Shown piece after piece: positions 14,901 through 17,900 of a stretch of 64,000 bases of DNA (its first letter is position 1; each line of letters opens with the position of its first letter). The stretch is taken from assembly GCF_029227855.1 (NCBI RefSeq), contig NZ_CP074356.1. The stretch is one strand, 5' to 3'. Source of the stretch: Escherichia coli. GTDB lineage: Bacteria > Pseudomonadota > Gammaproteobacteria > Enterobacterales > Enterobacteriaceae. A program made the position numbers.

Positions 14901-17900
14901 TGCCTTGTATGCTGACGTTGGCAATTCCTGGAGTGCTGCCGCGCTTTAAAGCAGAACAGATGATGCCCGCTATCGCGCTTATTGTGTCGGTTATTGCCTC
15001 GGTAGTCATTGGCGGAGCGGGGAGTCTGGCGTTCCCGCTGCCTGCATTAATCTGGTGTGCAGTGCGCTATACGCCGCAGGTAACATGTCTGTTGACCTTT
15101 GTCACCGGTGCGGTGGAAATCGTACTGGTGGCAAATTCGGTGATTGATATCTCGGTCGGTTCGCCATTCTCCATTCCAGAAATGTTCTCCGCACGTCTCG
15201 GTATTGCCACGATGGCGATATGCCCAATTATGGTTTCTTTTAGCGTGGCAGCGATCAATTCGCTAATGAAGCAAGTTGCGCTGCGAGCCGACTTTGATTT
15301 TCTGACTCAGGTTTACTCACGGTCCGGTCTTTATGAGGCGCTGAAAAGTCCATCGCTGAAACAGACACAACATCTGACTGTCATGCTGCTTGATATCGAC
15401 TATTTCAAAAGTATTAACGATAACTATGGACATGAATGTGGCGATAAAGTGTTAAGCGTGTTTGCAAGGCATATTCAGAAGATTGTCGGTGATAAGGGGC
15501 TGGTGGCACGAATGGGCGGCGAAGAATTTGCTGTTGCAGTGCCGTCGGTGAATCCTGTCGATGGTCTGCTAATGGCGGAAAAAATCCGTAAAGGCGTTGA
15601 ACTGCAACCGTTCACCTGGCAACAAAAAACGCTTTATCTCACGGTAAGTATTGGCGTCGGTAGTGGTCGCGCATCGTACCGAACGCTGACCGATGACTTT
15701 AATAAATTGATGGTCGAAGCCGATACGTGTCTGTATCGCTCGAAGAAAGATGGGCGCAACCGTACCAGCACTATGTGTTACGGTGAGGAAGTTGTCTGAC
15801 ATCTTTATTCATTCAGAGCGATTTAAATGCAATGTGTTCTACCACTTTATGATCCAAGAAAAGGCGTTTTTCCTCGATTAAACCATGATCCGCGCCACAC
15901 TTTTCTCATAAAACTGCTCATTAATCATCAGGAGTTGATCAAAACAGGGGTTCGGCGTATTAAAGTTTGCTAACCTGTCGTACCAATTCAAACAGGTTGT
16001 ATGACTAATCAGAAGGGAACCCATTGTGAAAACACTAAATCGTCGCGATTTTCCCGGTGCACAGTATCCAGAACGTATCATTCAGTTTGGTGAAGGTAAC
16101 TTCCTGCGCGCCTTTGTTGACTGGCAAATCGATCTCCTGAATGAGCACACCGATCTGAATTCTGGCGTGGTCGTTGTTCGTCCGATTGAAACTTCATTCC
16201 CGCCGTCACTGAGCACGCAGGATGGTCTGTATACCACCATTATCCGTGGCCTGAATGAGAAGGGTGAAGCGGTCAGCGACGCGCGTCTGATTCGCTCGGT
16301 TAATCGTGAAATCAGCGTCTACAGTGAATACGATGAATTCCTGAAACTGGCGCATAACCCGGAAATGCGCTTTGTTTTCTCTAACACCACCGAAGCGGGT
16401 ATCAGCTACCATGCGGGCGATAAATTCGATGACGCGCCAGCGGTAAGTTATCCGGCAAAACTGACCCGTCTGCTGTTCGAACGTTTTAGCCATTTCAACG
16501 GTGCGCTGGATAAAGGTTGGATCATCATCCCGTGTGAGTTGATCGACTACAATGGCGACGCGTTGCGTGAACTGGTGCTGCGCTATGCGCAAGAGTGGGC
16601 ACTACCAGAAGCATTTATTCAATGGCTGGATCAGGCTAACAGCTTCTGTTCTACGCTGGTGGACCGTATCGTTACCGGCTATCCGCGTGATGAAGTGGCT
16701 AAACTGGAAGAAGAACTGGGTTATCACGATGGTTTCCTCGACACCGCTGAACACTTTTACCTGTTTGTGATTCAGGGGCCGAAATCCTTAGCGACTGAGC
16801 TGTGCCTGGACAAATATCCACTCAACGTGCTGATTGTTGACGATATTAAACCGTACAAAGAACGCAAAGTGGCAATCCTCAACGGTGCGCACACCGCGCT
16901 GGTGCCGGTGGCGTTCCAGGCAGGGCTGGATACCGTAGGTGAAGCGATGAACGATGCTGAAATTTGCGCATTCGTTGAAAAAGCCATCTACGAAGAAATT
17001 ATTCCGGTACTGGATTTGCCACGCGATGAACTGGAATCTTTCGCTAGTGCAGTCACCGGACGTTTCCGTAACCCGTACATCAAACATCAGTTGCTGTCTA
17101 TCGCCCTCAACGGTATGACCAAGTTCCGCACCCGCATCCTGCCGCAACTGCTGGCAGGGCAGAAGGCAAACGGCACACTTCCGGCGCGCCTGACTTTCGC
17201 ATTAGCGGCATTGATTGCGTTTTATCGCGGTGAGCGTAATGGAGAAACATATCCGGTACAGGACGATGCACACTGGCTGGAACGTTATCAGCAACTCTGG
17301 AGCCAGCATCGTGACCGTGTTATCGGCACCCAGGAACTGGTAGCGATTGTTTTGGCAGAAAAAGACCACTGGGAGCAGGACCTGACGCAAGTGCCTGGTC
17401 TGGTCGAGCAGGTGGCTAATGACCTGGATGCGATTCTCGAAAAAGGAATGCGCGAAGCTGTACGTCCGTTGTGCTAATACTCTGAACCCGGTTTCGACCG
17501 GGTTTCTTATTTTACTATATTAGTTACAACATCCTATGTGCCTTTATCATTAACGGGTGCCATATGCCACACCTGTAAATGTTGTAAACTTGTAGGTAAT
17601 TTGTACGTAGCGTCTTGAGAATGTGATCGTAATCACGTTTAATAGGGCGACTTTTCCACGCCTGAAGATAACCATGATTGTTCGTCCACAACAACACTGG
17701 CTGCGCCGTATTTTTGTCTGGCACGGCTCAGTATTATCCAAGATATCCTCGCGCTTACTACTCAATTTTCTCTTTTCTATCGCTGTTATTTTCATGCTGC
17801 CCTGGTACACGCATTTGGGCATCAAATTCACCCTCGCACCGTTCAGCATTCTCGGTGTTGCCATCGCCATTTTTCTTGGTTTTCGTAATAATGCCGGGTA

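What the first reader, a model, noticed from the sequence alone, without database searches (positions are those of the whole stretch)
15972..15998. Inverted repeat AACCTGT-N13-ACAGGTT upstream of uxaB
A 7-bp perfect inverted repeat enclosing GTACCAATT lies ~30 bp upstream of the uxaB GTG start. uxaB belongs to the hexuronate regulon controlled by ExuR/UxuR, and this is the obvious operator candidate.
Basis: partly seen in the sequence, partly recalled or inferred. Interest (0 to 1): 0.3.

Follow-up and report, generated by a model that had tools for sequence, protein, structure and literature searches.

The report
uxaB promoter and ExuR operator boxes
The inverted repeat is real but incidental: it straddles the already known E. 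coli uxaB promoter, where the repressor ExuR most likely binds two adjacent, differently centred boxes, so this is ordinary regulatory DNA.

Summary
The repeat AACCTGT-N13-ACAGGTT is at 15972-15998, 27 nt upstream of the uxaB GTG, in an E. coli chromosome. Repeats of this kind occur about once per 350 bp in the window, so it is not significant by itself.

The region is an ExuR operator, but the repeat is not the recognition element.
- A matrix built from 54 published non-uxaB ExuR sites scores -18 on the repeat's own axis.
- It scores 12.7 for AACCTGT-CGT-ACCAATT (Box 1, centre 15980), the second best of about 64,000 positions.
- It scores 7.8 for the published site CAGGTTGTATGACTAATCA (Box 2, 15993-16011).

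The left arm is therefore the published -10 element plus the left half of Box 1. The spacer holds the right half of Box 1 and the catalogued transcription start (about 15986). The right arm is the upstream edge of Box 2.

Across 80 Enterobacteriaceae uxaB promoters, Box 1 is kept in 76 and the two boxes sit 21-22 bp apart in 78. All seven arm positions are complementary in only 3 of those 80. Escherichia variants break the repeat without compensating changes.

The likely mechanism is ExuR blocking the -10 element and start site. ExuR control of uxaB is already known. Box 1 is absent from the one site list I could read.

The parts
15787..15807 (.). Distal ExuR site A, GGAAGTTGTCTGACATCTTTA. It overlaps the dgcF stop codon and is centred about -189 from the transcription start.
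   Evidence: Listed for E. coli b1521 (uxaB) in the ExuR site table of PMC4494728 file S1. It is the best matrix hit in the whole window, 18.6 bits.
15829..15849 (.). Additional ExuR-like box, GCAATGTGTTCTACCACTTTA (GT-TCT-AC core), centred about -147.
   Evidence: Third best matrix hit in the window, 11.8 bits, and 12.3 with the reduced matrix. It is not in the published list, and a hit at the equivalent position recurs in only one other species.
15935..15954 (+). Strongly conserved block TTGATCAAAACAGGGGTTCG, centred about -44. Its role is unresolved: CRP/FNR-type activator site, KdgR-like operator or -35 region.
   Evidence: The left 15 nt and several positions beyond are at least 90% invariant over 80 species. 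It is KdgR-like in most genera, with 5 mismatches to a palindrome checked on kdgK, kdgT and kduI. An FNR ChIP peak is reported at uxaB.
15968..15976 (+). Core promoter: TG-c-TAACCT, an extended -10 element. The -10 hexamer TAACCT overlaps the left arm of the repeat.
   Evidence: PMC4447067 Table S3 gives CTAACCT as the experimentally determined -10 region of uxaB. The pattern TGnTAAnnT is conserved in the 80-species alignment.
15972..15978 (.). Left arm of the reported inverted repeat, AACCTGT. It equals 5 nt of the -10 hexamer plus the left half-site of Box 1.
15970..15990 (.). ExuR Box 1, CTAACCTGTCGTACCAATTCA. The 17-nt core AACCTGT-CGT-ACCAATT lies at 15972-15988, with the dyad centre at 15980 (about -6). 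It covers the -10 element and the transcription start.
   Evidence: 12.7 bits, rank 2 of 63,980 positions, and 13.2 bits, still rank 2, after removing uxaC-type training sites. It scores at least 8 bits in 76 of 80 aligned sequences, median 13.8. In most genera it reads AAGTTAT-NNN-ACCAAT, close to the uxaC operator AAAGTTATCACACCAATTT. It is not in the published list that I could read.
15986..15986 (+). Catalogued uxaB transcription start, uncertain by about 3 nt. It lies inside the repeat's spacer and gives a 5' UTR of about 40 nt.
   Evidence: PMC4447067 Table 1 gives an experimentally validated start at 1608744 in U00096.2 coordinates. I converted it with a 1976-bp version offset, calibrated on lpp.
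15992..15998 (.). Right arm of the reported inverted repeat, ACAGGTT. It is the 5' flank plus the first five bases of the left half-site of Box 2.
15993..16011 (.). ExuR Box 2, the published site B CAGGTTGTATGACTAATCA. The core TTGT-ATG-ACTA has its dyad centre at 16002 (about +17).
   Evidence: Listed for E. coli, E. fergusonii, S. sonnei, C. koseri and K. pneumoniae uxaB in PMC4494728 S1. It scores 7.8 bits. GTTGTATGAC is nearly invariant over 80 species. It lies 21-22 bp from the Box 1 centre in 78 of 80 sequences.
16012..16020 (+). Likely ribosome-binding region, AGAAGGGAA.
   Evidence: Read directly from the sequence. AAGGGAAC is conserved in the alignment. This is an inference.
16026..17477 (+). 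uxaB coding sequence (tagaturonate/altronate oxidoreductase), with a GTG start.
   Evidence: ORF list and RefSeq annotation of an identical genome.

Best explanation
The repeat has no function of its own. It is a by-product of three overlapping functional elements of the known uxaB promoter-operator. The left arm AACCTGT is most of the -10 hexamer (TAACCT) and also the left half-site of an ExuR box, AACCTGT-CGT-ACCAATT (Box 1, centre 15980). The spacer holds that box's right half-site and the transcription start. The right arm ACAGGTT is the upstream edge of a second ExuR box, CAGGTTGT-ATG-ACTAATCA (Box 2, centre 16002), which is the published site. Shown here: the matrix matches, their conservation, their fixed 21-22-bp spacing, and their position relative to the published -10 element and start site. 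Inferred: without hexuronate, ExuR dimers occupy both boxes on the same face of the helix, keep RNA polymerase off the -10 element and start site, and block the early transcribed region; the inducer releases ExuR. Two upstream ExuR-type boxes (15787-15807 and 15829-15849) may add avidity or DNA looping, but this is speculative.
For: An independent matrix was built from 54 unique non-uxaB ExuR sites (PMC4494728 S1). It places the three best hits of the 64-kb window all upstream of uxaB, with Box 1 at rank 2 (12.7 bits), and the published Box 2 at 7.8 bits. Four hits of at least 7.8 bits fall within 240 bp, where 0.045 are expected. The result holds when uxaC-type training sites are removed. Box 1 scores at least 8 bits in 76 of 80 Enterobacteriaceae uxaB promoters. 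Hits recur across most species only at -47/-46 and -25/-24 from the start codon, apart from a -209 hit in 11 loci. The spacing is 21-22 bp in 78 of 80. The published -10 element CTAACCT and start coordinate 1608744 place Box 1 over the -10 element and start site, and Box 2 at about +9 to +25. uxaB is catalogued as regulated by CRP and ExuR, and is induced on glucuronate and on uxuR deletion. Against any function of the repeat itself: the matrix scores -18 on its axis; the arms are fully complementary in only 4 of the 80 aligned sequences (the window and 3 other species) and match at 4 or fewer of 7 positions in 59 of 80; and Escherichia variants change one arm without compensation.
Against: I have no binding data for either box at uxaB. 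The training sites are comparative-genomics predictions, are phylogenetically redundant, and were made palindromic by me. A hit of 12.7 bits is expected about once per random 64 kb, so the support for Box 1 rests on its position and conservation. Part of that conservation could come from the overlapping -10 element. Box 1 is missing from the published list for every species, which could mean its curators rejected it. The -10 hexamer sits 9 nt from the catalogued start, which is unusually far. The promoter-scan tool found no consensus promoter here.
Confidence: 0.78

Rival explanations
1. One reading: the 7-bp arms are the two half-sites of one ExuR/UxuR operator, and one repressor dimer binds AACCTGT and ACAGGTT across the 13-nt spacer.
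For: The repeat is perfect and lies in the promoter-proximal region of a gene regulated by ExuR. AACCTGT does resemble an ExuR left half-site.
Against: All listed ExuR sites have a GT-N3-AC core, so the half-site centres are about 10 bp apart, not 20. The matrix centred on the repeat's axis scores -18. The arms are complementary at 4 or fewer of 7 positions in 59 of 80 orthologous promoters, while both GT-N3-AC boxes are kept. Natural Escherichia variants break one arm only.
Confidence: 0.04
2. The repeat forms an RNA hairpin in the uxaB 5' leader that affects mRNA stability or translation.
For: The RNA version folds as a 7-bp stem, extended by 3 pairs, with a minimum free energy of -8.3 kcal/mol. 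Several natural changes in the right arm are A-to-G and would keep G-U wobble pairs.
Against: The catalogued start (about 15986) and the -10 element (15970-76) put the left arm upstream of the transcript. The fold is only marginally better than shuffles: z = -1.8, with 10 of 200 shuffles as good. The leader from +1 shows no unusual structure (z = +0.3). The pairing is not conserved and shows no compensatory changes. No terminator-like site is present.
Confidence: 0.03
3. The repeat is the binding site of a different regulator that recognises a wide palindrome. ChIP studies report FNR, ArcA and sigma-S polymerase signals at uxaB.
For: An FNR ChIP peak, aerobic ArcA occupancy and sigma-S polymerase binding are reported at the uxaB promoter.
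Against: Neither arm resembles the FNR half-sites (TTGAT/ATCAA) or the CRP half-sites. The only FNR-like half-site is in the conserved block at 15935. ChIP resolution does not single out the repeat. The repeat is restricted to a few lineages.
Confidence: 0.05

Closest known systems
ExuR operators of the E. coli exu regulon (exuT, uxaCA, exuR, uxaB); ExuR belongs to the GntR family, FadR subfamily
   Same: The boxes have the same palindromic architecture with a GT-N3-AC core. Box 2 is the published uxaB site. Box 1 in most genera (AAGTTAT-NNN-ACCAAT) is nearly the reverse complement of the uxaC operator AAATTGGTGTGATAACTTT. Both lie over or just downstream of the promoter, as expected for a repressor.
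   Different: The E. coli Box 1 has a diverged left half (AACCTGT against the consensus AAGTTGT). It is absent from the published site list I could read.
UxuR operators (uxuAB and uxuR promoters)
   Same: UxuR is a paralogous repressor with a related A/T-rich palindrome built on TGGT/ACCA. One paper states that UxuR and ExuR share a conserved motif and bind each other's sites (PMC11806353).
   Different: The paper assigns UxuR sites an even spacing, GT-N2-AC. Sites with that spacing lie upstream of K-12 uxuA and uxuR. The uxaB boxes are GT-N3-AC, and no even-spaced match better than 3 mismatches in 10 is present.
FadR-DNA recognition, the structural prototype of the subfamily (from general knowledge, not tested here)
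   Same: One dimer binds a palindrome of about 17 bp with the conserved TNGT/ACNA elements described in PMC4494728.
   Different: FadR is a different regulator with a different regulon. It serves only as a geometric argument that one dimer cannot span arms whose centres are 20 bp apart.

Membership tests
ExuR (GntR/FadR-type) operator | Palindrome of about 17-21 bp with a GT-N3-AC core (TNGT-N3-ACNA) | tested here: met
   Box 1 reads CTGT-CGT-ACCA and Box 2 reads TTGT-ATG-ACTA. The motif definition comes from PMC4494728.
ExuR (GntR/FadR-type) operator | The reported inverted repeat, taken as a unit (arms 13 nt apart, axis at 15985), fits the ExuR matrix | tested here: not met
   The matrix score on the repeat's axis is -18.1, and -19.0 with the reduced matrix.
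ExuR (GntR/FadR-type) operator | Matrix score within the range of accepted sites | tested here: met
   Box 1 scores 12.7 bits and Box 2 scores 7.8. The training sites have a minimum of 7.3, a 10th percentile of 10.8 and a median of 18.1. Box 2 is therefore borderline.
ExuR (GntR/FadR-type) operator | Conserved at the orthologous promoter in related genomes | tested here: met
   Box 1 scores at least 8 bits in 76 of 80 aligned sequences. Box 2 does so in 52 of 80 with the reduced matrix. The spacing is 21-22 bp in 78 of 80.
ExuR (GntR/FadR-type) operator | Position compatible with repression, overlapping the core promoter or start site | tested here: met
   Against the published -10 element (15970-76) and start (about 15986), Box 1 spans -14 to +3 and Box 2 spans +9 to +25.
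ExuR (GntR/FadR-type) operator | Binding by ExuR protein, released by hexuronate | not testable with these tools
   This needs EMSA, footprinting or ChIP. Only regulon-level statements were found.
UxuR operator | Even-spaced palindrome, GT-N2-AC (TTGGT-NN-ACCAA) | tested here: not met
   The best match in 15780-16030 has 3 of 10 specified positions wrong, and those matches are the N3 boxes read out of register. The UxuR site table was not in the stored part of the supplement.
Regulatory RNA hairpin in the 5' leader, or an attenuator/terminator | Both arms transcribed; pairing conserved with compensatory changes; a T-run for a terminator | tested here: not met
   The start lies inside the loop. 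There are no compensatory changes. No terminator-like site was found. The fold z-score is -1.8.

The most novel reading that the evidence does not exclude
Box 1 (15972-15988), rather than the published Box 2, is the principal ExuR operator of uxaB and has escaped curation. With Box 2 it would form a tandem operator phased at 21-22 bp and conserved across Enterobacteriaceae. In the Escherichia/Citrobacter lineage its left half-site and the overlapping -10 hexamer changed together, from TAAGTTAT to TAACCTGT. That change incidentally created the inverted repeat.
Probability: 0.4. Interest if true: 0.25.

Novelty: already known. Interest (0 to 1): 0.15.

Why it matters
It matters little beyond annotation. 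Repression of uxaB by ExuR, its promoter and at least one operator site here are already catalogued. The useful outcomes are corrective. First, a perfect inverted repeat near a start codon is not in itself an operator. In this case the true dyads are offset by 5 bp upstream and 17 bp downstream of the repeat's axis. Second, the uxaB promoter probably carries a second, better conserved ExuR box over the -10 element and start site that the site list I could consult omits. If confirmed, this would refine the ExuR regulon model, matrix-based site prediction, and the design of hexuronate-responsive promoters.

Tried and rejected
- The key primary papers are not held: Suvorova 2011 (PMC3147527) and Mata-Gilsinger 1983 (PMC1202228). 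Blanco & Mata-Gilsinger 1986 and Rodionov 2000 are not in the library. I therefore could not check whether Box 1 was described there.
- The ExuR biosensor paper concerns the unrelated Bacillus ExuR and was discarded.
- The Kim 2012 start-site supplement gave only the orthologue pair b1521/KPN_01640, not a start site.
- UxuR site rows were not found in the stored part of the PMC4494728 supplement, so the UxuR test used a consensus pattern only.
- The promoter and terminator consensus scan returned nothing in 15780-16060. The -10 element came from the literature and from conservation instead.
- A full-text search for the Box 1 and Box 2 sequences found only an unrelated Drosophila primer.
- My first scan used an 18-mer even-spaced consensus recalled from memory. 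It picked the right places in the wrong register and was replaced by the data-derived matrix.
- CRP and FNR consensus matching found no convincing site inside the repeat.
- The RNA-hairpin idea was rejected on the position of the transcription start and the lack of covariation.

Full report
**Observation**

The window is E. coli chromosome. The stretch 15600-16400 is 100% identical to strain 2012C-4221 and is present in 5417 of 5426 complete genomes. The local gene order is sad-glsB-yneG-dgcF-uxaB-yneE, and uxaB (tagaturonate reductase) runs from 16026 to 17477 with a GTG start.

The sequence at 15972-15998 is AACCTGTCGTACCAATTCAAACAGGTT. This is a perfect 7+7 inverted repeat with a 13-nt spacer, and it cannot be extended. 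It ends 27 nt before the GTG.

It is not statistically remarkable. Perfect 7-bp inverted repeats with spacers of 0-20 nt occur 184 times in the window, about one per 348 bp, against about 95 in Markov simulations. A 226-bp intergenic region would hold 0.3-0.65 of them by chance.

**What the ExuR motif looks like**

Suvorova et al. 2015 (PMC4494728) state that ExuR, like FadR, PdhR and LldR, binds an A/T-rich palindrome with conserved TKGT/ACMA elements and 3 nt between GT and AC. UxuR has 2 nt between them.

Their supplementary table lists the ExuR sites by genome. For E. coli uxaB (b1521) it gives two sites:
- GAAGTTGTCTGACATCTTT, at window 15788-15806, overlapping the dgcF stop codon.
- CAGGTTGTATGACTAATCA, at window 15993-16011.

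The same proximal site is listed for E. fergusonii, S. sonnei, S. flexneri, C. koseri and K. pneumoniae. This published proximal operator overlaps only the right arm of the repeat.

**Matrix test**

I built a palindromic 21-position matrix from the 54 unique listed ExuR sites that do not belong to uxaB, and scanned the window.

| Position | Sequence | Score (bits) | Note |
|---|---|---|---|
| 15787-15807 | GGAAGTTGTCTGACATCTTTA | 18.6 | published site A, best hit in window |
| 15970-15990 | CTAACCTGTCGTACCAATTCA | 12.7 | Box 1, dyad centre 15980, rank 2 |
| 15829-15849 | GCAATGTGTTCTACCACTTTA | 11.8 | rank 3 |
| 15992-16012 | ACAGGTTGTATGACTAATCAG | 7.8 | Box 2, published site B, centre 16002, rank 11 |

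The three best hits of all 63,980 positions lie upstream of uxaB.

- Random 64-kb sequences give about 1.06 hits of at least 12.7 bits and about 12 of at least 7.8. Four hits in 240 bp compare with an expectation of 0.045.
- Removing the uxaC-type training sites leaves Box 1 at rank 2, with 13.2 bits.
- Centring the matrix on the repeat's own axis (15985) gives -18.

The part of the finding that matches the ExuR matrix is therefore AACCTGT-CGT-ACCAATT. The arm pair itself does not match. No even-spaced site of the type the paper assigns to UxuR is present.

**Promoter context**

The sigma-S ChIP-seq paper PMC4447067 lists an experimentally validated uxaB transcription start at 1608744 in U00096.2 coordinates. 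It gives the -10 region as AAGTTTG-CTAACCT-GT....

I calibrated the offset between genome versions on lpp. Its start coordinate in the same table, its annotated ATG in NC_000913.3 and its 38-nt leader (recalled from memory) together give an offset of 1976 bp. The printed lpp and uxaB sequence strings both end 3 nt before the start derived this way. This places the uxaB start at about window 15986, uncertain by about 3 nt, and the -10 hexamer TAACCT at 15971-15976, preceded by TG at 15968-69.

It follows that:
- The left arm is five bases of the -10 hexamer plus GT.
- The start site lies inside the spacer.
- Box 1 spans about -14 to +3.
- Box 2 spans about +9 to +25.

uxaB is catalogued as regulated by CRP and ExuR. 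It is induced on glucuronate and on uxuR deletion.

**Phylogenetic footprint**

A search of the species-representative genomes returned 80 Enterobacteriaceae uxaB loci. The alignment of the 110 nt upstream of the start codon shows four conserved blocks:
- TTGATCAAAACAGGG.
- TGnTAAnnT, the extended -10 element.
- Box 1.
- GGYTGTATGAC-TAAT, which is Box 2.

In most genera Box 1 reads AAGTTAT-NNN-ACCAAT, almost the reverse complement of the listed uxaC operator AAATTGGTGTGATAACTTT. Only Escherichia, Citrobacter and Intestinirhabdus have AACCT(G/A)T.

Box 1 scores at least 8 bits in 76 of 80 sequences, with a median of 13.8. The median for Box 2 is 8.1. Matrix hits recur across most species only at -47/-46 and -25/-24 from the start codon, apart from a -209 hit in 11 loci. 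The centre-to-centre spacing is 22 bp in 58 sequences and 21 bp in 20.

The arm complementarity behaves very differently. It is 7 of 7 in only 4 of the 80 aligned sequences (the window and 3 other species), and 4 or fewer of 7 in 59.

Within Escherichia, one-sided changes break the repeat with no compensation:
- AACCTAT in strain OkiPb01679.
- ACATGTT in strain 114.
- GCGGGTT in MOD1-EC7003.
- GCAGGTT in SCPM-O-B-8794.

Otherwise the 101-bp promoter stretch is at least 99% identical in 5054 of 5411 E. coli records.

**RNA hairpin**

As RNA, the repeat would fold at -8.3 kcal/mol, with z = -1.8 and 10 of 200 shuffles folding as well. The left arm lies upstream of the start, however. The leader from +1 has no unusual structure. 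No terminator-like site is present. I rejected this reading.

**Mechanism**

Shown here: two ExuR-type boxes with fixed phasing, positioned over the -10 element, the start site and the early transcribed region, and conserved across the family.

Inferred: ExuR dimers on both boxes, on the same face of the DNA, exclude or trap RNA polymerase, and hexuronate inducers release them. The distal sites at about -189 and -147 might add cooperativity or looping, but they are not conserved outside Escherichia and its close relatives.

The inverted repeat arises because the diverged left half-site AACCTGT happens to be complementary to the flank of Box 2. This is lineage-specific and shows no sign of being selected.

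**Comparison with what is known, and novelty**

The regulatory region is the known uxaB promoter-operator, so the finding is already known in substance. The specific claim that the repeat is the operator is not supported.

The only possibly new detail is Box 1. It is absent from the one published site list I could read, yet it matches the matrix better and is more conserved than the listed site. I could not consult Rodionov 2000, Suvorova 2011, Blanco & Mata-Gilsinger 1986 or RegulonDB to see whether it is already described.

**Caveats**

- There are no binding data.
- The training sites are predictions from related genomes.
- Conservation of Box 1 is confounded with the overlapping -10 element.
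- The start coordinate rests on a 1986 mapping as catalogued, and on my coordinate conversion.

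Noticed in passing
window 15935-15954: The block TTGATCAAAACAGGG(G/T)TT, centred about -44, is more conserved across 80 Enterobacteriaceae than either ExuR box. 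In most genera it reads ATCAAAACAGGGTTTCAnT. That is 5 mismatches from a KdgR palindrome that I checked on the K-12 kdgK, kdgT and kduI promoters, and 16 of 19 identical to the kdgT site. The right half is degenerate in E. coli. The block also holds an FNR-type TTGAT half-site, and an FNR ChIP peak is reported at uxaB.
   Followed up: partly
window 15971-15978 compared with L017-L084 at about 1448-1456: The -10 hexamer and the overlapping ExuR left half-site differ by lineage. They read TAAGTTAT in most genera, TAACTTAT in Klebsiella, and TAACCT(G/A)T in Escherichia, Citrobacter and Intestinirhabdus. In I. alba (L021) the change yields a 9-bp inverted repeat, AACCTGTTG/CAACAGGTT.
   Followed up: partly
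L067, L073, L078, L080 (Franconibacter, Siccibacter), about 50 nt upstream of uxaB: These four genomes lack Box 1: the matrix scores -16 to -24 and the sequence there is CGGTGAGCAGGCAGTG or similar. They carry an altered Box 2, TTGTCTGATAA. This suggests a different operator arrangement.
   Followed up: no
window 14381-15799 (dgcF): The diguanylate cyclase gene upstream of uxaB is full length here (472 aa, with a sensor domain). K-12 MG1655 annotates only 315 aa for dgcF. The distal ExuR site A overlaps its stop codon.
   Followed up: no
window 15849-15855, 15885-15891 and 15884-15899: ATGATCC occurs as a direct repeat 36 bp apart. The second copy lies in CATGATCCGCGCCACA, the best CRP-consensus match of the region (3 mismatches), centred about -94.5.
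   Followed up: no
L068 (CACSKA010000003.1): A contig labelled Chryseobacterium sp. 18061 carries an Enterobacteriaceae-type uxaB (86% protein identity). Its promoter is almost identical to that of Enterobacteriaceae bacterium RIT691 (L069). The record is probably contaminated or mislabelled.
   Followed up: no
window, whole: Perfect 7-bp inverted repeats with spacers of 0-20 nt are about twice as frequent as in first-order Markov simulations (184 against about 95).
   Followed up: no
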